A DNA stretch of 64,000 nucleotides. Source: an uncultured Vampirovibrionales bacterium. GTDB taxonomy: Bacteria; Cyanobacteriota; Vampirovibrionia; Vampirovibrionales; Vampirovibrionaceae. The translations under genes were made by a program, and so were the position numbers. The stretch is from the NCBI GenBank assembly GCA_964387265.1, contig CAYLWC010000006.1, positions 21,272-85,271 of the forward strand, read 5' to 3'. Shown here piece after piece: positions 23,866 through 63,241 of this stretch. Every line of letters begins with the position of its first letter. The stretch's first letter is position 1. The notes beneath the pieces were generated by a model. The model ran no database searches. It saw only the letters and a list, made by a program, of their open reading frames with translations, and was not told where the DNA came from.

Positions 23866-24040
23866 AGTGCTCCTAACTTATGGGCACTTGCACTGTCTGA
23901 GCACGCTGAGTTATAAAAAATGTCCAGCCGAAGCCTTGCAGGCTGGGCCACATGCAATTTGCTTGAAGCGCGCGCAGTTAGCAGAGTGCCCTAGCGGGCG
24001 GGGGTTGTAGGGGGGCCAGTAATGCGGCCCCTACAAAAAA
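23866..24040. repeat. Structured intergenic repeat element, copy A (second copy at 57972-58130).
   Basis: Shared blocks with copy B: CTAACTT, TGAGCAC, ATAAAAAATG, a hairpin with the identical 11-nt loop GAAGCCTTGCA, GCGCGCAGTT, CCTAGCGGG, and a 3' GC hairpin. All three helices are maintained by compensatory substitutions. Confidence 0.7.
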
Positions 24041-38620: not shown

Positions 38621-39478
38621 TTAAACCTCGCTCAGGATGTTATCCAGTATCTCATCTGGAACAGGCCCGGCGTGAGCAGGTAGATTCCCAACGGAAAGGC
38701 CAGCAGTTGAAGTGATTGTGTTGCCCCCTAAAAAGGCATTGAGTTTTTGCTCCATGATAATCGGGTGATCCCCGGTTCGGATACTGATAATGGCTTCGAG
38801 CAACAGGGTTTTGATAAACCAGTCTTCTCGCGCCCGCTGTTTTAACTTGCCAGCAATGGGCAAAAGAAACAGGTTGGAGATGGCGACCCCGTAAAGCGTG
38901 GCGCTAAAGGCGCTGGCCACCCCTTGACCCAGGTGGGCAGGATCATGAAATGAATTAACCACATAAATCAATCCGATAATGGCTCCGATAATTCCCATGG
39001 TAGGGGCAAACCCACCGGCGGTTTCAAATACGCGGGCGTAGTCCATTTGTTCCCGGTAGGCCACTTCAATTTCTGTAGAGAGGCTATCTCGAATAAAGCT
39101 TTCCTGACGGTTATCCACCACCAGCTCAAGTCCTTTTTTCAAAAACGGAATTTCCACGCTGGGGAGCATGGGCTGAAGGGCCAGAATTCCCTCTTCCCGA
39201 ATAAAACTCACTACGTCCAGCACGTAATTCAGACAATGGCGTGGGGAATGGGGAGAATGATAAAAGCACTCCACGAGGGCGCCGATGGCGTTGTTTAGGG
39301 TCTTGAAGTTAAAACTGACTAGCGTGGCGGTGGTTGTTCCGCCAAATACGATTAATAACGCTTCCGGGCTAAGCAAGGTGCCCAGAGGCACCTGTCCCAG
39401 TACCAAAGCGGCCACCAGGATGAAAAATCCAAATGCCAGACCGACTAAACAGGAAGAATCAAATTTTTTCGAATCCAT
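38621..39478 (-). CDS. motA: Flagellar motor stator protein MotA (MotA/TolQ/ExbB proton channel family).
   Basis: Four TM helices and a C-terminal MotA/ExbB channel signature (PTMGIIGAIIGLI...ATLYGVAISNLFLLPIAGKL). Start chosen at MDSKKFD, while the ORF extends to 39556. Confidence 0.8.
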   Translation of the reverse strand: MDSKKFDSSCLVGLAFGFFILVAALVLGQVPLGTLLSPEALLIVFGGTTTATLVSFNFKTLNNAIGALVECFYHSPHSPRHCLNYVLDVVSFIREEGILALQPMLPSVEIPFLKKGLELVVDNRQESFIRDSLSTEIEVAYREQMDYARVFETAGGFAPTMGIIGAIIGLIYVVNSFHDPAHLGQGVASAFSATLYGVAISNLFLLPIAGKLKQRAREDWFIKTLLLEAIISIRTGDHPIIMEQKLNAFLGGNTITSTAGLSVGNLPAHAGPVPDEILDNILSEV

Positions 39479-40074
39479 ACCACCGGATACCCCATGGGAT
39501 ATTACACACTCTCTTTGTTTAGCGTAGTGGATGGACGGATGGCTTTCCTCCTCCAAATTCAGGAGAGAGAAAAAATTCGGCGTAAATCCGGGTCAGCGTA
39601 GAAAAGCAATCATGACCGATCCGGCTCCCGCAACGCCGATAAAATATCGAAGCTTTACAAAAGTTAATATTCTCTGGTGGACAGTTGCTTCACTGTAAAA
39701 AAATCAGGCGGGCGGTAAAAAATCGGGAAAGCCAAACTGTTGAGGTTATTTAATTCTGTTTTTCAGAATCTTAATTTTGTAAAAGTGAAAAAACGATTGT
39801 ATTAGACTCAATAAATGTTTGCTGTATCCACCATACTCATAGGTGAGTTCTGATATAATGATAGCCTAAAAGGTTCAGCTCAGACTTCAGTAAGTCAAAC
39901 GCTGAACAGTGTTGTTTGTGAGGTTGTTTTAAGTAATCCAAACCAATGAGAATTACTTGGTGACAATTGTTTCAGGATGAACAACCTAATCAGTTTACAG
40001 CTATCTTCTTACTTTGGTGAAAAAATGTCAACCCCTAGTGATAAAACGTTTTTTTGATAAGTTAGAAATATGAT

Positions 40075-40392
40075 ATGAAGTGGTTTTTCGGGCAATATAT
40101 TGACCAACTGCGAGTTCGAAAGGGCTGGTCAAAAAGTCAGTTGGCAAAGGAAACCGGACTGTCGACAGGATACATTTCCTGGCTGATCCACGGTGAAACC
40201 TCGGGGAAAACAAACCCTCCCAATCTAACGATTGACACGTTATTGGCGCTTTCGCGCGCCTTGGGTATCTCTGTTGAGGATCTGGTGATTGCCTACCAGG
40301 GTAAGGATCCTCTGGATGAAAAGACGAATGGTCGTTCCCCCATGGATTTACTGGAAGAGGCATTACGGCTCCTCAACCATGAAAAGCTCTAG
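40075..40392 (+). CDS. XRE-family helix-turn-helix transcriptional regulator.
   Basis: HTH_XRE motif (SQLAKETGLSTGYISWLIHGE...NLTIDTLLALSRALGISVEDL). 105 aa. Confidence 0.7.
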   Translation: MKWFFGQYIDQLRVRKGWSKSQLAKETGLSTGYISWLIHGETSGKTNPPNLTIDTLLALSRALGISVEDLVIAYQGKDPLDEKTNGRSPMDLLEEALRLLNHEKL

Positions 40393-54164: not shown

Positions 54165-56474
54165 TTAGCGATGGGCAGCGGGTTCAAGAACCGGACCCGC
54201 CTGATCATCAGGTTCATCATCCCGGTAGGACCAGCCGGTTTTCAGGCCGAGAACAAACCAGCCCAGGGCCAGAACGCCAATGGCAAAAATGGTATCGCCA
54301 ATCACCCGGAGCCAGCGCAAAATATCCATAAGTTCCGTCTGGGTGAATTCAGCGGAACGGGCATACCACATTCCCTGTTCCACGCTGGCCCAGGTCTGCA
54401 TTAACCCTCGGGGTAAATCAGACAGCAAGACCATCAACGCCAGCCCAATGTTAATGGACCAGAATCCGATCGCCAGCCACCTGCTATTCCAGGCACGATG
54501 AACCGCCAGCCCTTTCAGGCAAAACAGCATCAAACCGATCCCCAGAATACCGTACACGCCAAACAGGGCGGTATGGGCATGGACGGCGGTGGTATTCAGC
54601 CCTTGCATATAAAACAGAGCAATGGGCGGGTTAATCAGGAAGCCAAACAGACCGGCCCCAACAAGGTTCCAGAAGCCCACGGCGATAAAGCAGAAAATGG
54701 GCCACTTATACGCCTTTACCCAGTGGGCTGCCCGGCTCAGGTTCAGGTTCTCATAGGCTTCAAAGCCAATCAATACCAGGGGAACTACCTCCAGGGCGCT
54801 AAATGTTGCCCCCAGGGCCAGGACCCCCACCGGCGTACCTGTAAAGTACAAGTGGTGGAATGTTCCGATAATCCCCCCAAACAGGAAGACAATCGTGGAG
54901 AACAACACTGCGGCGGTGGCGGTGGATGTTCTCAATAGTCCCATTCGGGTAAACAGGAAGGCAATCGTGACGGTGGCGAATACTTCAAAGAAGCCTTCCA
55001 CCCATAGGTGAACCACCCACCAGCGCCAGTATTCCGCCATCGCCAGGTTTGTGTGCTGGCCGTAGAAAAAGCCGGGCACGTAAAAAATGGGAATCGCCGC
55101 GGACGCCAGTACAAACAATCCCAGCAGATGCTTGGAATCCTCACCGTTTTTGAAAGCCGGACGAATGGCCCGCCATACCAACCCCAGCCAGAGGAACAGG
55201 CCCACCAGCAAGAATCCTTGCCAGAAGCGGCCCAGATCCAGGTATTCATAGCCCTGGGTTCCAAACCAGAAGCTCTGGGTCAGGTCGTCCATTCCCGGAA
55301 CAATCGACATCCACTCCCCGCCCAGAGAGCCAACCACAATAACCAGCAGACAGACAAACAGGAAATTAACGCCCAGTTTCTGATACGGCGGCTCATACCC
55401 GGAAATGGCCGGGGCAATAAACAGCCCGGTCGCAAGCCATGCCGTGGAGATCCAGAAAATGGCGAGCTGTGTGTGCCAGGTTCGGCTGACAGCATAGGGG
55501 AGCCACTGATCCAGCGGAATCCCGTAAAAGCCGGAACCCTCTACCCCGTAATGAGCCGTAACGGCTCCCAAACCGACCTGAGCGACCACCAGTGCCATGA
55601 CCACCCAAAAATATTTGAGTGTCGCTTTCATGGACGGGGTTGGGTTAATGGCCAGCAACGGATCCGTTTCTGAGATGGCAGTCTCATGATTGCCCTGACC
55701 CCGGCTATTGGAGGCATAATACCAGCACAATCCTCCCACGCCAGCGAGCAGCAAGACAAAGCTGATCACCGACCAGACCACGGTCGCGCCGGTGGGTTGG
55801 TTGTTGATTAATTGCTCAGGGGGCCAGTTTTGGGTATAAGTCACGTTTTCTCCCGGCCGGTTGGTTGAGGCTGCCCAGGAGGCCCAGAAGAAAAAGCTGT
55901 TCAGCTTGCGCCGGTTTTCCTCGCTCCGTACCTTATTAGCCGGGATGGCGTAGGCGTCCCGTAATTCCACGATCTCCGGATCGGGGTCATTGCCAAACAA
56001 AGACGCGTAATGTTCCCCCACTGCCACAATGGCTTGGGCTCTCAGGGGAGAAATCGTGAGTGTCTGGGTTTCAGGGTTGTATGTATTGGTTCGCATCAGC
56101 TGAACCAGGCGGGCTTTGAGCATGGCCAGCTGTTCGGGTGGCAGCTCGTTGTAGTCGCTGACGCCATAATCTTGCAAAGCCCAGGTGTTCAGGTAATACT
56201 CCGCCTCCCGGTGAATCCAGTCGGCGGTCCAGTCCGGGGCTACATAAGAGCCATGTCCCCAGATGCTACCCACCTGATGCCCACCCATGGCCTGCCAGAC
56301 GTTTTGTCCGTCCTGAATATCCTTTTGGGTAAAGAGGGTCTTACCGTCTTCAGTGACGATTTGCTTGAAGACGGGTGGGGCCTTTTGATAAATCTCCAGT
56401 CCGTAGTAGCCCAAGACGGTGAACGATGCCAACAGAACCACGGCCAGCGTAAACCAAAGCCTGAAATAGTGCAT
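54165..56474 (-). CDS. norZ: Quinol-dependent nitric-oxide reductase large subunit (qNOR, NorZ/NorB heme-copper oxidase family).
   Basis: About 770 aa with an N-terminal extension and a single TM before a periplasmic domain. 12-TM heme-copper oxidase core with conserved His ligands (HHLYF, WVVHLWVEG, HTALFGVYG). Confidence 0.8.
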   Translation of the reverse strand: MHYFRLWFTLAVVLLASFTVLGYYGLEIYQKAPPVFKQIVTEDGKTLFTQKDIQDGQNVWQAMGGHQVGSIWGHGSYVAPDWTADWIHREAEYYLNTWALQDYGVSDYNELPPEQLAMLKARLVQLMRTNTYNPETQTLTISPLRAQAIVAVGEHYASLFGNDPDPEIVELRDAYAIPANKVRSEENRRKLNSFFFWASWAASTNRPGENVTYTQNWPPEQLINNQPTGATVVWSVISFVLLLAGVGGLCWYYASNSRGQGNHETAISETDPLLAINPTPSMKATLKYFWVVMALVVAQVGLGAVTAHYGVEGSGFYGIPLDQWLPYAVSRTWHTQLAIFWISTAWLATGLFIAPAISGYEPPYQKLGVNFLFVCLLVIVVGSLGGEWMSIVPGMDDLTQSFWFGTQGYEYLDLGRFWQGFLLVGLFLWLGLVWRAIRPAFKNGEDSKHLLGLFVLASAAIPIFYVPGFFYGQHTNLAMAEYWRWWVVHLWVEGFFEVFATVTIAFLFTRMGLLRTSTATAAVLFSTIVFLFGGIIGTFHHLYFTGTPVGVLALGATFSALEVVPLVLIGFEAYENLNLSRAAHWVKAYKWPIFCFIAVGFWNLVGAGLFGFLINPPIALFYMQGLNTTAVHAHTALFGVYGILGIGLMLFCLKGLAVHRAWNSRWLAIGFWSINIGLALMVLLSDLPRGLMQTWASVEQGMWYARSAEFTQTELMDILRWLRVIGDTIFAIGVLALGWFVLGLKTGWSYRDDEPDDQAGPVLEPAAHR

Positions 56475-56723: not shown

Positions 56724-57008
56724 ATGATGACAAGTAATGTACGGGCCAGCCACTTATTAGTAGCCACCGAAGAGGAAGCCAAGCAGTTGCGGCAGGAGAT
56801 TGAGGGTGGTGTGAGTTTTGCGGAAGTGGCCCAGCGGGTATCGAAGTGTCCTTCTGGAAGAAATGGTGGGGATTTAGGCTTTTTTGGCCGGGGCCAGATG
56901 GTGCCGGAGTTTGATCAAGCCGCCTTCACCCTGCCGGTGGGCCAGCTCTCTGAACCCATCCAAACCCAATTCGGCTGGCACCTCCTCGTGGTGACTGAAC
57001 AGAAGTAG
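56724..57008 (+). CDS. Parvulin-type peptidyl-prolyl cis-trans isomerase (PpiC).
   Basis: ASHLLV...GGDLGFF...GWHLL parvulin motifs. 94 aa. Confidence 0.8.
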   Translation: MMTSNVRASHLLVATEEEAKQLRQEIEGGVSFAEVAQRVSKCPSGRNGGDLGFFGRGQMVPEFDQAAFTLPVGQLSEPIQTQFGWHLLVVTEQK

Positions 57009-57129
57009 TTTTTACAGATCATTTCTCATTCCTTATATCAAGTTTTAACTACTATCGCTGTAGGTTTAATTTCTTGTTACAAAGTTCATGCAATAAAGTC
57101 CTTTAAATTAAATAGGAAAAATCTAGTCG

Positions 57130-57963
57130 ATGGAGAATCAACCACCAAATGTGAACTCGCTCACAGATAAGGAGCTTCAGATTAAGCTTGCTGAATATAA
57201 AATGTGGACTGAAACTTCAACGAAGCATATAGATCTTATTTTCAAATCTGTTGTTTTCGTTATTACAGCAAGTGGTGCTGTTGTTGTATTTAATTTAAAT
57301 AATAACTTTGAATTTCCTTTTTCTCTAAGCTTGTTATTTATTGCATTATTATGCGGTTTTATGTCTGTCATATTCGGTTATCCTGCATTTTATTTAATAA
57401 GCTCCTGCAAAAGGATGGAAGAATTAACTACTGAAATTAACGCAAAGCTGCGCCCCACTCTAGATTTACTTCAAAGGATACTCTCCATTTTTTCTGTGCT
57501 TTTCTTGCTACTTTCTATCATATTTTCCAGTTTATTCTTTCGACCATGCTTGTTTGGAATTCAAAACACAGTTAGTAACTATGAACACTCAACTAGCTTA
57601 GAAGATGATAGTCAAACAATTAAAGCACACCAAATAGAGTATCAAAACTATAGAGATAAAATTAATAGTTCAGAACACAAGCTAGCTTACTTAAATAAGA
57701 GACTTACTGAAATTGACACAGAATTAAACAACCTTCTCAATAAACCACAGAAATCACAGACAGAAATTAACCAGATTAAAAACTTAAAAAATGAATTATT
57801 AAAACACAAACAGGAACTAAAACAAGAAATTGCCCACATAAAGAAAATAAGACAAAGCATTCAAGTAAAAATTGATAAAGATAAAGTATTACGCGATAAA
57901 TACCAACAGCAAGCCTTGCACTATGCGAAATTAGAGCAACTACTACTTAATGAAATAAACTAG
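57130..57963 (+). CDS. Hypothetical membrane protein (three predicted TM helices plus a C-terminal ~110-aa coiled coil), encoded by a low-GC (~33%) horizontally acquired gene.
   Basis: Long clean ORF of 277 aa. The strong AT-rich composition contrasts with the ~55% GC of the flanks. TM segments are VVFVITASGAVVVF, LLFIALLCGFMSVIFGYPAFYLI and ILSIFSVLFLLLSIIFSSLFF. The K/E/Q/L-rich heptad-like tail is NELLKHKQELKQEIAHIKKIRQ. Confidence 0.6.
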   Translation: MENQPPNVNSLTDKELQIKLAEYKMWTETSTKHIDLIFKSVVFVITASGAVVVFNLNNNFEFPFSLSLLFIALLCGFMSVIFGYPAFYLISSCKRMEELTTEINAKLRPTLDLLQRILSIFSVLFLLLSIIFSSLFFRPCLFGIQNTVSNYEHSTSLEDDSQTIKAHQIEYQNYRDKINSSEHKLAYLNKRLTEIDTELNNLLNKPQKSQTEINQIKNLKNELLKHKQELKQEIAHIKKIRQSIQVKIDKDKVLRDKYQQQALHYAKLEQLLLNEIN

Positions 57964-57971
57964 TGTTTGCC

Positions 57972-58130
57972 CCACCTAACTTGGCCCTCGGATTGTTTGA
58001 GCACAGCGAGGGATAAAAAATGCCGAGCCGAAGCCTTGCAGGCTCGGCCACTTAAAAACCTGTCTGAGCTGCGCGCAGTTTCCGAGGGCCTAGCGGGGGT
58101 CCAGGGGGCGGCAATGAGCCCCCTGGGTAA
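57972..58130. repeat. Structured intergenic repeat element, copy B (paralog of 23866-24040). On the minus strand it forms the 3' UTR/terminator of gene 58148..58924.
   Basis: Same block order as copy A. The hairpin GCCGAGCC-GAAGCCTTGCA-GGCTCGGC has a loop identical to copy A and is followed on the minus strand by ATTTTTTAT. Outer helix GGCCCTCGGA/TCCGAGGGCC. 3' hairpin CCAGGGGGC-ggcaatga-GCCCCCTGG. Confidence 0.7.
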
Positions 58131-58147
58131 TTAACCCCAAAATATTA

Positions 58148-58924
58148 CTATAATTTATACAACGTCGCCTTCACGTTCAGGCGAATCCCGCCCGCCTCGG
58201 AGACCTCGTTAATTTGCGCCCCATGACGCAGGGGCAGCTTCATGACGAAAATATCATCCTCAGACACGCCCACAGCAGAGGCCTGACCGTATTGGTCTGG
58301 ACAACTCGTCACGGCATGAAGCACACTGGCCGCTCCGCCCGTATGCAGATCATCCACATACACATGCAGGGTTTGCCCATCGGGGTTCATGCGAGCGCTC
58401 ACATTGGCTGGGTGGGTTACGGGCGTTACGGTATAACGCATCTGGCACCCATCCGCGTTAATTTCTCCGCCACCGCTCAGGTATTGCAGGGTCCCCTTCC
58501 CCGGAAATTCCTTCTGACCTGGCCCGATGGAGAAATCAACCTGCGCGCGGGAGACGAAAACCAGGTGTCCGTTTCCGCCATCTGGGAATTGATGCCAGCT
58601 CTCACGATGTTGATCCAAGACGAGGCGATAGTTCCCATAAGCGGTGGGTGGAGCAAATGGGGTTTCGGCTGCGCGTTTTGCGGCGAAGCCTGGGGCGCAT
58701 TGTTGACGAATGGGCTCAAACTGTTGCATGAGTTGCTGAACCATGGGGTTGTCCCGCTCTTGTCCCATTTCCGCCTGCATCCGGCGAAACTCTTCACACA
58801 TCTCATCAATTTGCTGCTGGGACTGGGCCGAGGCCAGCGGCACTTGCAGGAGTAACCCCCACAAAAACAGCGCGAACATCCCACAAAGGGTCAAACTGAT
58901 ATATAGACGTTTCATCACCAACAC
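58148..58924 (-). CDS. Hypothetical secreted protein.
   Basis: Signal peptide (LYISLTLCGMFALFLWGLLLQVPLASA). 258 aa, no family recognised. Confidence 0.5.
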   Translation of the reverse strand: MLVMKRLYISLTLCGMFALFLWGLLLQVPLASAQSQQQIDEMCEEFRRMQAEMGQERDNPMVQQLMQQFEPIRQQCAPGFAAKRAAETPFAPPTAYGNYRLVLDQHRESWHQFPDGGNGHLVFVSRAQVDFSIGPGQKEFPGKGTLQYLSGGGEINADGCQMRYTVTPVTHPANVSARMNPDGQTLHVYVDDLHTGGAASVLHAVTSCPDQYGQASAVGVSEDDIFVMKLPLRHGAQINEVSEAGGIRLNVKATLYKL

Positions 58925-60475: not shown

Positions 60476-63241
60476 ATGCTGAGCCATTTTTTCAAGCAAG
60501 TGGACATTCGTTTTTTGACGTTACTGGCGTTGCTGGTGATGCTGGTTCCGGCCTCCTGGGCGATCGATCACCCCAGAGAACTGGCAGGTGTCTGGAAGGG
60601 CTCAAACGGACTGGAATATGAAATCCAGGTCAATGGCCTGGAGGTGATTCTGCTGAAGCCGGTGGGTTACTCCACGGAGCGGCAACCCCACCGGGGGCGC
60701 TTTAACCAAACAGGATTTGAGCTGGAGTTTAAACCTCGGGAAGACCATCACCTGAACTTGGAACTCCCGTTTAAGGTGCGCCATACGTTGCTCAGCTCAC
60801 CTGAATACAAGCAGATGGACCGGCTTGATTTAAGCACTCCCGGCAAAATTATCTATGTGGACCGGATAAACTGGATCACTTGGGACGGGAAGGAAAATGT
60901 CACGGATATTAAATACAATTACAAGGAGGAGCGCATCACGCTGACTCGCCCCAACGACTACTATAAGATTGGGGAAATTACCATTGACGATTCCCGGCGT
61001 CGCCAGCGGATCGCCTCCGAAGTGGCGCAAATGCAGGCTCAGATTGATGAACTGCGGACGGTCCGCCAACCGGCCCTGGAGCAAGAATTAACGACTTCTG
61101 AACAGGAGATGAAAGCGGCGGAGGATGCCTTTCAGCAAGCCACAAACCGTTATGAGGATCTGAGCGGGCAGCTCAAGGCCACAAGCGAACAATTGCGTCA
61201 ACTGGCTGAGAGCAAGAAACCGGCTTACCAGCAGTTATTGGCGGATCGTGACCAGCTTTTGAAGGAAGTGGACGCGCTCCTTTCTGTTAAGAACGATTAC
61301 TTTAAAACGGGAAACATGCAGGGGGTCAATTCTATGGACCGCCAGCTACGGGGAAAATACAATGATCTGGAGCGCCTCAACCAGCGGCTGGTGCGAGAAT
61401 TTCCCGAGGATCAGCAAATCAAGGAGTTAACCAACAATATTGAGAACTTAAAAGCGGAGCGACAAGCGGCTTTTAACGAGTATTATCAAGGAATGCTGGC
61501 CTATGACCGGGCGGTCGAGGCCCATCTGCAGAAACAGAAAGAACTGGGTCGCCTGCAAGCCCAAATCAGCCGTCGGGAGCAAGAATTGGCTTACCGGCAA
61601 CGGCCGGTGGTGGTGAGTAAGATCCGGCTCATGGTTGGGGGAGAGGTGCCTTTTGAGGCGGAGGCTTCCCAGGAGCAGGGAACCCTGCAGCGCTTTGAGG
61701 AAGACATTGCCCAGGTGGATCAAAACCTGGTGCAGTTAAACCAGTCCCTCCATGGGCTGATGCAGCAGGAAGAGGCCATTGCCCAGCAACGGCAACAGGC
61801 TAAGGAGCGATTTTTAGAAGCGGCGCAAGAGCTTAAAGCGGCTGGAGATTCGGTCTATAATACCCAAATAGGCAGCATGATTGGCCGGGCGGCGGCTGAA
61901 ACCGCCGCTTATGGGGCGGATGTGTTTATGGCCTTTAAGGATGGGGGTCTGGTGGGCGTGACCGTTGAACTGGGCGGGAAGCTTCTGGAAGCCTATCTTC
62001 AAGAAGGTGAAACCTTTGAACTGTTTGATGAAACCGCTCTTCGGGAGCAGATGATGGGCCCCATGATCGCAAGCCATCCGTTGCATCAGGCTTATGTTGC
62101 CGCGCAAAATGAGCAAGGCGAGACCGCTCCGGCTCATTATCCCGTGATAGACGGAGAGACCCAGCCTCAAGACAGTAATATGGTGGATCAGGTCTCTGGT
62201 TTCGGGACAGAGTTTGCCATGAGCCAGAAAGACAAGCTGATCATCGTCACCCCGTTAAAAGAACTGGCCACACGGGGAGTCAACATTTACAAGTACCATG
62301 ACGCTATGGGCCAGATGGATGCAGCCAGAGAGATGCTTCAGAAAAATGCCCAGGTAAGCCGGGTGGACTTTCCGGATCATCAAGCCCTCAACCCCCTTGC
62401 CCAGGCTCAGGAAGATGCGTTTTCTCGCTATCTCCAGTCTCGAGAATTGGTGAACCAGGCAGAAGACCGCTTGGCCCGAACCACCAACCCCTTGTTAAGA
62501 AAGGAGGCTCAAGAGCAGCTTGCCCATGCGACCCGACTTCAACGAGCCGCCCAGAACAACTACAACCATTTGGTGCAAGAGCAAGCTCTCCAGGCGCAAA
62601 AAATCAGCCGGGCCCGCCGAGGGATTGCTGAGGCCACGGAGCATTTGGATACATTAAAAGAAGCTGGCCAAGGCAGTATCACCAAGAGCTTAAAGAACAT
62701 GGGTAGCGGGGTGGCCAAAGGGTTGGCCGTTGATCTGCTGAAGGCCGCCGCCCACAAATGGGCGGATCATGAGGAGCGGGAAGCCTGGATTCATTTCTTT
62801 GAGAAGGAAATCGCGATGCAGGCCAACCGGCAAATTTTCCAGAAAGCCTCCAACAACTTCTGGAATCACCAGGACGCCATCAAGAACCATCAGGAGTTGA
62901 TTCAGACGTTGTCCCAGATTCGGACCGCCCTGGAAAATGATCGCTCCCGCTATTTAGCGAGCAAAGGAGACGGTGGTTTTTACATCGTGAACAACCAGGG
63001 CTTTCAACCCAAAGAATCGACCGTCATGATCCTTTCGCTGATGGGGTATGTGGGGTCTGAGGAAGTTCGGCTGGCCGAGACCGTGAGTGGCCATCCGGTG
63101 CAGCTTCGTCTCCAGAGCGGTTTGGAAGAAAACGCCCGCAGCCTGGATCATACGGATCACGCGTACCGGTTCCAACCCAATGCCATTAAATCCATCCAGG
63201 TAAAAGACAATCTCTTGCCCTTACGAATTCAATTGCTCTGA
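60476..63241 (+). CDS. Large secreted/anchored coiled-coil protein (921 aa), hypothetical.
   Basis: N-terminal signal/TM (FLTLLALLVMLVPASWA). Extensive Q/E/R/L/A-rich coiled-coil segments (aa ~170-420 and 650-800) flank a central globular region. No family recognised. Confidence 0.55.
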   Translation: MLSHFFKQVDIRFLTLLALLVMLVPASWAIDHPRELAGVWKGSNGLEYEIQVNGLEVILLKPVGYSTERQPHRGRFNQTGFELEFKPREDHHLNLELPFKVRHTLLSSPEYKQMDRLDLSTPGKIIYVDRINWITWDGKENVTDIKYNYKEERITLTRPNDYYKIGEITIDDSRRRQRIASEVAQMQAQIDELRTVRQPALEQELTTSEQEMKAAEDAFQQATNRYEDLSGQLKATSEQLRQLAESKKPAYQQLLADRDQLLKEVDALLSVKNDYFKTGNMQGVNSMDRQLRGKYNDLERLNQRLVREFPEDQQIKELTNNIENLKAERQAAFNEYYQGMLAYDRAVEAHLQKQKELGRLQAQISRREQELAYRQRPVVVSKIRLMVGGEVPFEAEASQEQGTLQRFEEDIAQVDQNLVQLNQSLHGLMQQEEAIAQQRQQAKERFLEAAQELKAAGDSVYNTQIGSMIGRAAAETAAYGADVFMAFKDGGLVGVTVELGGKLLEAYLQEGETFELFDETALREQMMGPMIASHPLHQAYVAAQNEQGETAPAHYPVIDGETQPQDSNMVDQVSGFGTEFAMSQKDKLIIVTPLKELATRGVNIYKYHDAMGQMDAAREMLQKNAQVSRVDFPDHQALNPLAQAQEDAFSRYLQSRELVNQAEDRLARTTNPLLRKEAQEQLAHATRLQRAAQNNYNHLVQEQALQAQKISRARRGIAEATEHLDTLKEAGQGSITKSLKNMGSGVAKGLAVDLLKAAAHKWADHEEREAWIHFFEKEIAMQANRQIFQKASNNFWNHQDAIKNHQELIQTLSQIRTALENDRSRYLASKGDGGFYIVNNQGFQPKESTVMILSLMGYVGSEEVRLAETVSGHPVQLRLQSGLEENARSLDHTDHAYRFQPNAIKSIQVKDNLLPLRIQLL

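What the first reader, a model, noticed from the sequence alone, without database searches (positions are those of the whole stretch)
57009..57975. Single-gene low-GC island encoding a 3-TM plus coiled-coil protein: a candidate horizontally acquired membrane effector
The window is ~55% GC throughout. The 834-bp ORF 57130..57963 and its 120-bp leader are only ~33% GC, with an A/T-rich codon bias (Asn/Lys/Ile/Phe-rich). This is an unmistakable compositional discontinuity between ppiC and a high-GC secreted-protein gene. The product has a short cytoplasmic N-terminus and three hydrophobic helices. Its C-terminal ~110 residues are heptad-like (NELLKHKQELKQEIAHIKKIRQSIQVKIDKDKVLRDKYQQQ). Compact, compositionally foreign genes for a small multi-TM protein with a soluble coiled-coil tail are typical of abortive-infection or defense effectors, and of phage/plasmid-derived cargo. 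No partner gene, integrase or tRNA is adjacent, and the 3' side is bounded by structured repeat copy B.
Basis: seen in the sequence. Interest (0 to 1): 0.6.

Follow-up and report, generated by a model that had tools for sequence, protein, structure and literature searches.

The report
AT-rich foreign orphan membrane-protein gene
A real, roughly 1-kb, strikingly AT-rich single-gene insert encodes a membrane protein from a very rare, undescribed family with a unique coiled-coil tail; it looks horizontally acquired, but no test supported the proposed anti-phage role.

Summary
The gene lies 9 sd (GC) and 7 sd (GC3) below the other 48 long ORFs, and both edges fall within 60 nt of the ppiC stop and its own stop.

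The gene is real. The N-terminal three-helix membrane domain has seven homolog clusters among billions of proteins. The tail stays open with p~1e-5, has 3.5-residue periodicity, and models as an antiparallel hairpin.

All homologs are 83-154 aa and lack the tail, which is unique to this copy. Every homolog with readable flanks is also AT-shifted against its host contig. The three closest members sit in three unrelated contexts. One starts about 20 nt after a tmRNA gene, a classic island integration site. This supports foreign origin.

The defence or phage/plasmid-cargo reading is not supported:
- The membrane domain gets no PADLOC hit; the only hits (LmuB, PbeC) are coiled-coil noise.
- None of eight neighbours is a defence gene.
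- No homolog appears in phage, plasmid, IMG/VR or viral-structure collections.
- No Pfam, NCBIfam or PDB family fits.

Verdict: an ordinary kind of thing, an AT-rich laterally acquired orphan gene, in an undescribed family. Function is unresolved. Interest is low to moderate.

The parts
56724..57008 (+). ppiC (parvulin-type peptidyl-prolyl isomerase, 94 aa). This is the host gene on the 5' flank, and its TAG stop marks the left edge of the AT-rich segment.
   Evidence: Pfam Rotamase 8.7e-24. GC 55.4%, GC3 62%. Nearest relatives are Vampirovibrionales MAGs at 73-79% identity.
57009..57129 (+). AT-rich leader (27% GC) with an SD-like AGGA at 57114-57117. An in-frame TAG at 57124-57126 fixes the ATG at 57130 as the start.
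   Evidence: No + strand terminator-like or consensus sigma-70 promoter site lies between ppiC and the ORF, so read-through from ppiC is possible (inference).
57130..57963 (+). Complete ORF of 277 aa plus stop. GC 31.4%; GC1/2/3 = 40/25/29%.
57160..57576 (+). Conserved membrane domain (residues 11-149), the only part with homologs. It comprises an N-terminal amphipathic helix continuous with TM1 (res 34-56; nt 57229-57297), TM2 (res 59-91; nt 57304-57402), a polar K/R-containing loop (res 92-109), and TM3 (res 110-144; nt 57457-57561).
   Evidence: Exhaustive phmmer: P0006 1.4e-30, P0007 6.9e-20, P0008 8.6e-4, all matching within residues 11-149. The profile search adds P0009-P0012. Hydropathy. 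AF2 helices 13-57, 64-103, 108-137.
57580..57960 (+). Lineage-specific C-terminal tail (residues 151-277). A disordered linker at 148-155 is followed by helix 154-203 (nt 57589-57738), a turn at NKPQKS (204-209), and helix 210-276 (nt 57757-57957), forming an antiparallel coiled-coil hairpin.
   Evidence: No homolog of the tail anywhere. The frame is open by chance with p~1e-5, while the other five frames carry 7-22 stops. 3.5-residue periodicity. AF2 block-mean pLDDT 79-92.
57964..58147 (.). GC-rich structured host repeat ('copy B') that forms the right boundary. It contains a hairpin at 58022-58048 that is followed by a T-run on the - strand, terminator-like for the convergent 258-aa gene. 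It is not part of the AT-rich segment.
   Evidence: Second copy at 23883-23951, 81% identical. Fold z-score -4.6 on both strands. No Rfam family.
58148..58924 (-). Convergent host gene for a 258-aa protein with a signal-peptide-like N-terminus, on the 3' flank.
   Evidence: GC 55.9%. No Pfam hit. Homologs at 51-55% identity lie in other contexts, not next to ppiC.

Best explanation
This is a ~955-bp compositionally foreign segment (leader plus one gene), most likely acquired by horizontal transfer. It sits in the 3'-3' gap between ppiC and a convergent secreted-protein gene, in a genome that looks like Vampirovibrionales (Melainabacteria).

It encodes an accessory inner-membrane protein. Its conserved core is a ~140-residue module: an N-terminal amphipathic helix plus three transmembrane helices. 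That module defines a very rare, undescribed family whose other members are stand-alone 83-154-aa proteins. This copy alone carries an added ~125-residue antiparallel coiled-coil hairpin.

**Shown**
- The gene is real.
- It is a compositional outlier.
- The membrane core is homologous to a handful of proteins that are also AT-shifted in their hosts and sit in unrelated contexts, one immediately after a tmRNA gene.
- The tail is an open, heptad-periodic, orphan extension.

**Inferred**
- Topology is N-in/C-out from K/R counts. That would place the ~9-nm hairpin (my estimate from helix length) in the periplasm, as an oligomerisation or reach module on a membrane-embedded core.
- Transcription may be by read-through from ppiC or from the AT-rich leader, with termination in the host repeat.
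- The molecular activity of the membrane core is not established. My best guess is a self-associating, membrane-acting accessory factor of the kind carried as mobile cargo (exclusion, permeabilisation or envelope interaction), held with low confidence.
For: **Composition**
- GC 31.4% against 51.1%; GC3 0.29 against 0.59 +/- 0.04; z = -7.4 and -9.2; edges within 60 nt.

**The gene is real**
- Homologs at 1.4e-30 and 6.9e-20, extended to 8 members by a profile search.
- Tail open by chance with p~1e-5.

**Foreignness**
- Gene GC against flank GC: L090 31% vs 48%, L091 41% vs 54%, L093 54% vs 64%, L100 54% vs 62.5%, L092 61% vs 66%.
- The three nearest members have three different neighbourhoods.
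- The L090 copy starts ~20 nt after a tmRNA gene (Rfam RF00023, 62.4 bits, E 7.5e-23). Genomic islands frequently integrate at tmRNA genes (PMC11915505).
- Rare, narrowly distributed orphan-type genes are characteristically short and AT-rich (PMC3514957). Most orphans match host GC, while those with viral similarity have markedly lower GC (PMC11293555).

**Host**
- Nearest ppiC relatives are Vampirovibrionales.
- V. chlorellavorus is 51.4% GC and other Melainabacteria 27.5-49.4% (PMC4451040).
- Gastranaerophilales loci here are 34-38% GC, so AT-rich relatives exist as conceivable donors.

**Structure**
- AF2 mean pLDDT 82.5: three-helix membrane bundle, disordered linker, hairpin.
- K/R counts: N-terminus 4, loop 1 zero, loop 2 four, post-TM3 two.
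Against: - No mobility signature in the window: no integrase, tRNA, inverted repeats or target-site duplication. Only a 4-bp TAGT occurs at both edges.
- L090 has no att-like repeat of the tmRNA end.
- No donor was found. There is no homolog in phage, plasmid, IMG/VR, JGI metagenome or viral-structure collections.
- No sufficiently close relative of the host could be retrieved, so an empty site was never seen.
- Part of the low GC1 and GC2 comes from the Leu/Ile/Phe/Lys/Asn-rich protein composition.
- Loop charges in the high-GC clade are ambiguous, so topology is not settled for the family.
- Function rests on architecture alone.
Confidence: 0.6

Rival explanations
1. Single-gene abortive-infection, defence or exclusion effector. 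The membrane core permeabilises or depolarises the membrane on phage infection, and the coiled coil acts as sensor or oligomeriser.
For: - Architecture: small multi-TM protein plus coiled coil, compositionally foreign, accessory, patchy distribution.
- Weak PADLOC hits: LmuB 1.3e-5, PbeC 1.2e-4.
- One homolog lies at a tmRNA hotspot where islands land.
Against: - The PADLOC hits lie only on the coiled coil (residues ~151-272 against profile arms 339-458/611 and 386-497/651). They are mirrored by SMC, Rad50 and RecN coiled-coil hits in NCBIfam.
- The membrane domains of all 8 members give 0 PADLOC hits at E<=1.
- No defence genes among 8 neighbours.
- The high-GC-clade homolog P0009 sits among metabolic genes (DUF6152, M28 peptidase, PQQ dehydrogenase) on all 8 contigs shown.
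- No partner gene.
Confidence: 0.12
2. Native, not transferred. The gene is a lineage-restricted, fast-evolving or weakly expressed gene whose AT-richness reflects mutation bias, relaxed codon selection and its amino-acid composition. The different contexts would then reflect genome rearrangement.
For: - No mobility genes, repeats or donor found.
- GC2 of 25% is partly dictated by TM and coiled-coil residues.
- The family-wide AT shift could be intrinsic to the gene.
- Many orphans are argued to be native (PMC11293555).
Against: - GC3 of 0.29 is 7 sd below the window's genes, and no other ORF falls below 0.506.
- The step in composition coincides with the gene edges and includes the non-coding leader at 27%.
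- Native orphans generally match host GC (PMC11293555).
- Members only 42-47% identical all remain AT-shifted, which long vertical residence should have ameliorated (inference).
- One member is adjacent to a tmRNA gene.
Confidence: 0.17
3. Remnant of a prophage lysis or exclusion module. The core would be a class-I-like three-TM holin, here fused to a spanin-like periplasmic coiled coil.
For: - The core family is 83-154 aa with three TM helices and short basic C-termini in the high-GC clade.
- Two members give very weak hits to Phage_holin_3_3 (best E 0.098).
- AT-richness is typical of phage-derived genes (PMC3514957, PMC11293555).
Against: - No endolysin, spanin or any phage gene lies next to any member.
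- No homolog in 50,697 phage genomes, IMG/VR or BFVD.
- PHROGs gives only noise on the membrane domain.
- The holin hit is far below threshold.
Confidence: 0.07
4. Spurious ORF in an AT-rich non-coding spacer.
For: AT-rich intergenic patches do exist in this window. For example, 39600-40100 is 34-37% GC and has no ORF within it.
Against: - Protein-level homologs at 1e-30 and 7e-20.
- A 277-codon open frame in 31% GC DNA. The tail alone is open by chance with p~1e-5, against 7-22 stops in the other frames.
- Coherent TM and heptad patterns and a confident AF2 model.
Confidence: 0.01

Closest known systems
AT-rich, short, narrowly distributed laterally acquired 'ORFan' genes (Daubin & Ochman class; PMC3514957, PMC11293555)
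   Same: - Much lower GC and GC3 than the host.
- Single gene with very narrow distribution: 8 clusters at 90% identity among 5.8 billion proteins.
- No annotated function, and a different context in each genome.
   Different: - It is not strictly an orphan, because a small family exists.
- It is longer than its relatives because of the added coiled coil.
- No viral homolog was found, although a viral source is the usual proposal for this class.
Genomic islands integrated at tRNA or tmRNA genes (Islander-type islands; PMC11915505)
   Same: - Compositional discontinuity.
- The closest homolog (L090) begins ~20 nt after the 3' end of a tmRNA gene.
   Different: - In the window there is no tRNA or tmRNA, no integrase and no flanking direct repeats.
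- The segment is only ~1 kb with one gene.
- L090 also lacks a detectable att repeat.
Membrane effectors of anti-phage systems; SMC-like LmuB and PbeC from PADLOC
   Same: - Small multi-TM architecture with a helical soluble part.
- Weak HMM similarity to the coiled-coil arms of LmuB and PbeC.
   Different: - No match outside the coiled coil, and no ATPase head.
- No partner genes and no defence neighbourhood.
- The membrane core matches no PADLOC model.
Class I (three-TM) holins and i-spanins (Rz-type) of phage lysis cassettes
   Same: - Three TM helices in a ~130-150-aa core, as in holins.
- A membrane-anchored, two-helix coiled coil predicted to be periplasmic, as in an i-spanin.
   Different: - No sequence or structural match.
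- No lysis cassette or phage context.
- No known holin-spanin fusion of this form (my own knowledge).
[not shown]
   Different: - 6-9% identity for the Mrs2, T. maritima/M. jannaschii CorA and ZntB hits (4% and 14% for the E. coli and C. jejuni CorA chains), with rmsd 4.6-9.1 A across these hits (5.8-9.1 A for Mrs2).
- Some of these hits are to soluble domains only.
- The GMN motif is absent. The low-GC clade has NLNxN and the high-GC clade has a charged loop.
- There is no large cytosolic domain, and there is an extra third TM helix.

Membership tests
Known or candidate anti-phage defence proteins (PADLOC-DB 2.0) | Significant HMM match to a defence family over its functional domain | tested here: not met
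   The full protein hits only the coiled-coil arms of LmuB and PbeC, using residues ~151-272. The membrane domains of 8 members give 0 hits at E<=1.
Known or candidate anti-phage defence proteins (PADLOC-DB 2.0) | Location in a defence island or next to partner genes | tested here: not met
   8 neighbours give no PADLOC hit at 1e-5. They are CitMHS, NorB, ppiC, YaiI and CPXCG proteins. Whole-genome enrichment was not testable.
Known or candidate anti-phage defence proteins (PADLOC-DB 2.0) | Confers phage resistance or infection-triggered toxicity | not testable with these tools
   Requires an experiment.
tRNA/tmRNA-integrated genomic island | Abuts the 3' end of a tRNA or tmRNA gene | tested here: not met
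   No tRNA or tmRNA in the 64-kb window. It is met only for homolog L090.
tRNA/tmRNA-integrated genomic island | Integrase gene and flanking direct repeats (attL/attR) | tested here: not met
   No integrase among the neighbours. No flanking repeat of 9 nt or more in the window, and no repeat of the tmRNA end in L090.
tRNA/tmRNA-integrated genomic island | Compositional deviation from the host | tested here: met
   z = -9.2 (GC) and -7.4 (GC3).
Laterally acquired AT-rich orphan-type gene | Short, AT-richer than host at GC1 and GC3, very narrow distribution, no conserved synteny | tested here: met
   Contexts differ. An empty site in a sister genome could not be tested.
Phage holin (class I) | Small protein with three TM helices | tested here: inconclusive
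   The core family is 83-154 aa with three TM helices, but the window protein is 277 aa. The best Pfam holin hit is E 0.098, in 2 of 8 members.
Phage holin (class I) | Encoded in a lysis cassette or phage genome next to an endolysin | tested here: not met
   No phage genes beside any member. No homolog in phage, IMG/VR or BFVD collections.
CorA/Mrs2 2-TM-GxN channels | GMN (GxN) motif at the end of TM1 and a large N-terminal cytosolic domain | tested here: not met
   [not shown]
Integron gene cassette | attC recombination site 3' of the ORF, shared among cassettes, with an integron integrase nearby | tested here: not met
   The 3' element is a host-GC repeat that also follows a gene at 23.9 kb. 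By eye it lacks the GTTRRRY partner of its RYYYAAC-like 5' end. L090 and L091 have unrelated 3' flanks. No formal attC model was run.
Curated protein families (Pfam-A, NCBIfam) and solved structures | Match at or above the curated threshold | tested here: not met
   Best Pfam E is 0.086, on the coiled coil. Nothing is shared by more than 2 of 8 members. PDB profile search best E 0.93. Foldseek PDB best E 0.42.

The most novel reading that the evidence does not exclude
The gene is the elaborated member of a new, extremely rare family of single-gene, membrane-acting conflict proteins (phage exclusion, abortive infection, or envelope attack in a predatory Vampirovibrio-like bacterium). The family would travel as minimal (~0.6-1 kb), integrase-less AT-rich islets that land immediately after the 3' ends of host genes: the ppiC stop here, and a tmRNA terminator in L090. 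The added periplasmic coiled-coil hairpin would be a lineage-specific sensor or reach module.
Probability: 0.1. Interest if true: 0.6.

Novelty: new member of a known kind. Interest (0 to 1): 0.28.

Why it matters
This gives a clean, well-bounded example of a one-gene compositional island in a poorly studied lineage: non-photosynthetic, partly predatory relatives of cyanobacteria. It also defines a tiny, undescribed membrane-protein family with 8 clusters in 5.8 billion proteins. Every family member is AT-shifted in its host, and one sits at a tmRNA gene.

If the family proved to be a membrane-acting conflict or exclusion factor, it would add a minimal single-gene system and an example of a domain gained by C-terminal coiled-coil extension. 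As it stands, the main value is corrective. The compositional signal is real, but the defence interpretation rests only on architecture and coiled-coil noise.

Tried and rejected
**Defence**
- Rejected as unsupported. The PADLOC hits are coiled-coil only and the neighbours are clean.

**Phage or plasmid cargo**
- tblastn against phages and plasmids gave no match.
- Scans of IMG/VR and JGI metagenomes with the close-clade alignment found none. The 8-member alignment was too divergent to scan.
- BFVD fold search gave nothing below E 0.63.

**Remote homology**
- Pfam, NCBIfam and PHROGs on all members gave nothing consistent.
- The afdb50 library was unavailable.

**Presence/absence in close relatives**
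- Exact look-ups of the target, ppiC, the 258-aa protein and P0002 all failed.
- A ppiC-anchored scan of GTDB representatives found only relatives at 79% identity or less, with no shared synteny.
- Homologs of the 258-aa neighbour lie in other contexts.
- A degenerate ppiC C-terminus pattern found nothing in JGI metagenomes.

**Other ideas tested**
- Split/fused gene idea (L091's upstream 97-aa coiled-coil protein against the tail): only compositional similarity, pairwise E 0.003.
- att sites, TSDs or TIRs around the islets: none found.
- Integron-cassette idea: rejected, because there is no shared 3' element and the repeat is host-type.
- Paralogs in the window: none.
- A second low-GC patch at 39.6-40.1 kb is an ordinary ORF-free divergent intergenic region.
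Full report
**1. Observation**

The 277-codon ORF 57130..57963 is present on the + strand. An in-frame TAG at 57124-57126 fixes the ATG at 57130 as its start.

The ORF is 31.4% GC and the 121-nt leader 57009-57129 is 27.3%. Sliding 834-bp windows have a standard deviation of 3.4%, and this is the lowest stretch in the window.

Against the other 48 non-overlapping ORFs of at least 150 aa, the gene lies 9.2 sd low in GC and 7.4 sd low in GC3. Its GC3 is 0.288, against 0.593 +/- 0.041, and no other ORF falls below 0.506.

In 60-nt windows, GC falls from 0.63 to 0.32 across the ppiC stop codon and rises from 0.35 to 0.55 across the ORF's own stop. The anomalous segment is therefore about 955 bp: one leader and one gene.

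ppiC is confirmed by a Pfam Rotamase hit at 8.7e-24. The other neighbours are a CitMHS transporter, a quinol-type NorB, YaiI/DUF188 and a CPXCG protein, plus three proteins without Pfam domains. There is no tRNA or tmRNA anywhere in the window.

**2. Is it a gene?**

Yes. An exhaustive phmmer search of 1.84 billion representative proteins found three relatives besides the protein itself:
- P0006: 154 aa, E 1.4e-30, 47% identity.
- P0007: 127 aa, E 6.9e-20.
- P0008: 138 aa, E 8.6e-4.

All three align only to residues ~11-149. A profile search of 5.8 billion proteins added P0009-P0012, which are 83-152 aa.

The C-terminal 127 codons have no homolog anywhere, but they are coding by three measures:
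- Shuffled sequence of the same composition stays open with p~1e-5, and the other five frames contain 7-22 stops.
- Hydrophobic residues show a sharp 3.5-residue periodicity.
- AlphaFold2 models them as two long helices, 154-203 and 210-276, folded back at NKPQKS with block-mean pLDDT 79-92.

**3. Anatomy of the protein**

Hydropathy gives three membrane segments at residues 34-56, 59-91 and 110-144. The model gives a 45-residue helix (13-57) that runs from a soluble amphipathic N-terminus into TM1. A six-residue loop follows, then a 40-residue helix (64-103) and a third helix (108-137). After that come a disordered linker (148-155) and the hairpin.

K+R counts are 4 in the N-terminus, 0 in loop 1, 4 in loop 2 and 2 just after TM3. 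This favours N-in/C-out and would put the hairpin in the periplasm. That is an inference, and loop charges in the high-GC clade are ambiguous.

**4. The family and its contexts**

Two clades emerge:
- A close clade of the window protein, P0006 and P0007, at 42-47% identity.
- A high-GC clade, P0008-P0012, with an ELFRFYLGLVLETVTF motif.

No member other than the window protein has a tail. Wherever flanks can be read, the gene is AT-shifted against its contig:

| Locus | Gene GC | Flank GC |
|---|---|---|
| L090 | 31% | 48% |
| L091 | 41% | 54% |
| L093 | 54% | 64% |
| L100 | 54% | 62.5% |
| L092 | 61% | 66% |

The three close-clade genes lie in three unrelated neighbourhoods:
- The window copy follows ppiC.
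- The L091 copy follows a 97-aa coiled-coil gene.
- The L090 copy starts about 20 nt after the 3' end and terminator hairpin of a tmRNA gene, detected by Rfam RF00023 at 62.4 bits and E 7.5e-23.

tmRNA genes are frequent integration sites for genomic islands (PMC11915505). In the window and in L090 the gene follows a co-oriented host gene and faces a convergent one, so it sits in a 3'-3' gap where an insertion is least disruptive (inference).

The high-GC clade member P0009 lies between DUF6152 and M28-peptidase genes and a PQQ dehydrogenase on all 8 contigs shown, of 14 read. These all carry the identical protein, so probably represent one population.

**5. Host**

The nearest ppiC relatives are Vampirovibrionales MAGs at 73-79% identity, followed by Gastranaerophilales. 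The window's 51.1% GC matches the 51.4% reported for Vampirovibrio chlorellavorus, while other Melainabacteria range from 27.5 to 49.4% (PMC4451040). Gastranaerophilales loci fetched here are 34-38% GC. AT-rich relatives therefore exist as conceivable donors, but none carries a detectable homolog.

Synteny with the retrieved relatives is absent. The source genome and any sister strains could not be retrieved. The decisive empty-site test could not be run.

**6. Tests of the defence and mobile-cargo interpretation**

PADLOC on the full protein gives LmuB (1.3e-5), PbeC (1.2e-4) and JetC-type hits. All map residues ~151-272 onto the coiled-coil arms of SMC-like profiles. NCBIfam shows the same pattern with SMC, Rad50 and RecN.

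With the tail removed, none of the eight family members hits any PADLOC model at E<=1, and PHROGs gives only noise. Eight neighbouring proteins have no PADLOC hit at 1e-5.

tblastn finds nothing in 50,697 phage records or 72,556 plasmids. Scans of IMG/VR and JGI metagenomes with the close-clade alignment find nothing.

Structure searches are equally uninformative:
- Foldseek against PDB: best E 0.42.
- BFVD: best E 0.63.
- PDB profile search: best E 0.93.

No inverted repeats, target-site duplication or att-like repeats flank the segment here or in L090. Only a 4-bp TAGT occurs at both edges, which is not significant.

**7. Interpretation**

The best-supported account is a horizontally acquired, single-gene AT-rich islet. 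It encodes an accessory inner-membrane protein of a very rare, undescribed family, and this copy has gained a lineage-specific coiled-coil hairpin.

This is the well-known class of short, AT-rich, narrowly distributed acquired genes (PMC3514957). It is the low-GC subset that stands apart from most orphans, whose GC matches their host (PMC11293555).

The biochemical activity is not established. I favour a self-associating, membrane-acting accessory factor with a probably periplasmic extension, held with low confidence.

Rival explanations and my estimates:
- Native but AT-biased gene: about 0.17.
- Defence or exclusion effector: about 0.12.
- Prophage lysis remnant: about 0.07.
- Spurious ORF: about 0.01, effectively refuted.

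**8. Verdict**

Novelty: a new member of a known kind, namely an acquired AT-rich orphan-type gene, in an uncharacterised family. Interest is low to moderate at 0.28. Two features could make it more interesting if followed up: the family-wide AT shift, and the tmRNA-adjacent homolog.

Noticed in passing
window 23868-24035 and 57973-58135: A ~170-nt GC-rich structured repeat is present in two copies, with a 69-nt core 81% identical. It folds far better than shuffles on both strands (z about -4.6). The outer stem differs between copies by apparently compensatory changes: GGGCACTTGC/GCAGAGTGCCC against GGCCCTCGGA/TCCGAGGGCC. An inner hairpin is followed by a T-run on the - strand. Both copies begin 11-14 nt after a stop codon. 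There is no Rfam match. It could be a REP/MITE-like element, a bidirectional terminator or a small RNA.
   Followed up: partly
L090 1-762 (GCA_964352955.1, CAYGUH010000070.1): The closest homolog of the target (P0006) starts ~20 nt after the 3' end and terminator hairpin of a tmRNA gene, in a 31% GC patch of a 48% GC contig. A convergent 1474-aa repeat-rich secreted protein follows. No att-like repeat of the tmRNA end was found.
   Followed up: yes
L091 460-934: The called 127-aa homolog starts at an internal GTG. The homology extends upstream (tblastn from nt 506), and an ORF from TTG 521 gives 137 aa. An upstream ATG (MNNPIAPP...) is out of frame by one base at a run of seven C, which could be a sequencing error or a slippery homopolymer.
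   Followed up: partly
window 39600-40100: This is the only other clearly AT-rich stretch in the window, at 34-37% GC. It is an ORF-free gap between a divergent MotA-like gene (38621-39556, -) and a small HTH gene (40075-40392, +). It looks like an ordinary divergent promoter region, not a second island.
   Followed up: yes
window 57006-57009 and 57961-57964: TAGT occurs at both edges of the AT-rich segment: the ppiC stop plus T, and the target stop plus T. If this is a 4-bp duplication, the inserted ORF would borrow its stop codon from the duplicated ppiC stop. Four bases are not statistically meaningful.
   Followed up: partly
window 54165-56474 (-) and 60476-63241 (+): A quinol-type nitric-oxide reductase (NorB with a fused cytochrome-c-like domain) lies divergent from ppiC. 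A 921-aa protein with a signal-peptide-like N-terminus (by eye) and a Gln/Glu/Ala-rich sequence that looks coiled-coil by eye, with no Pfam domain, lies 2.5 kb downstream. Neither was examined further.
   Followed up: no
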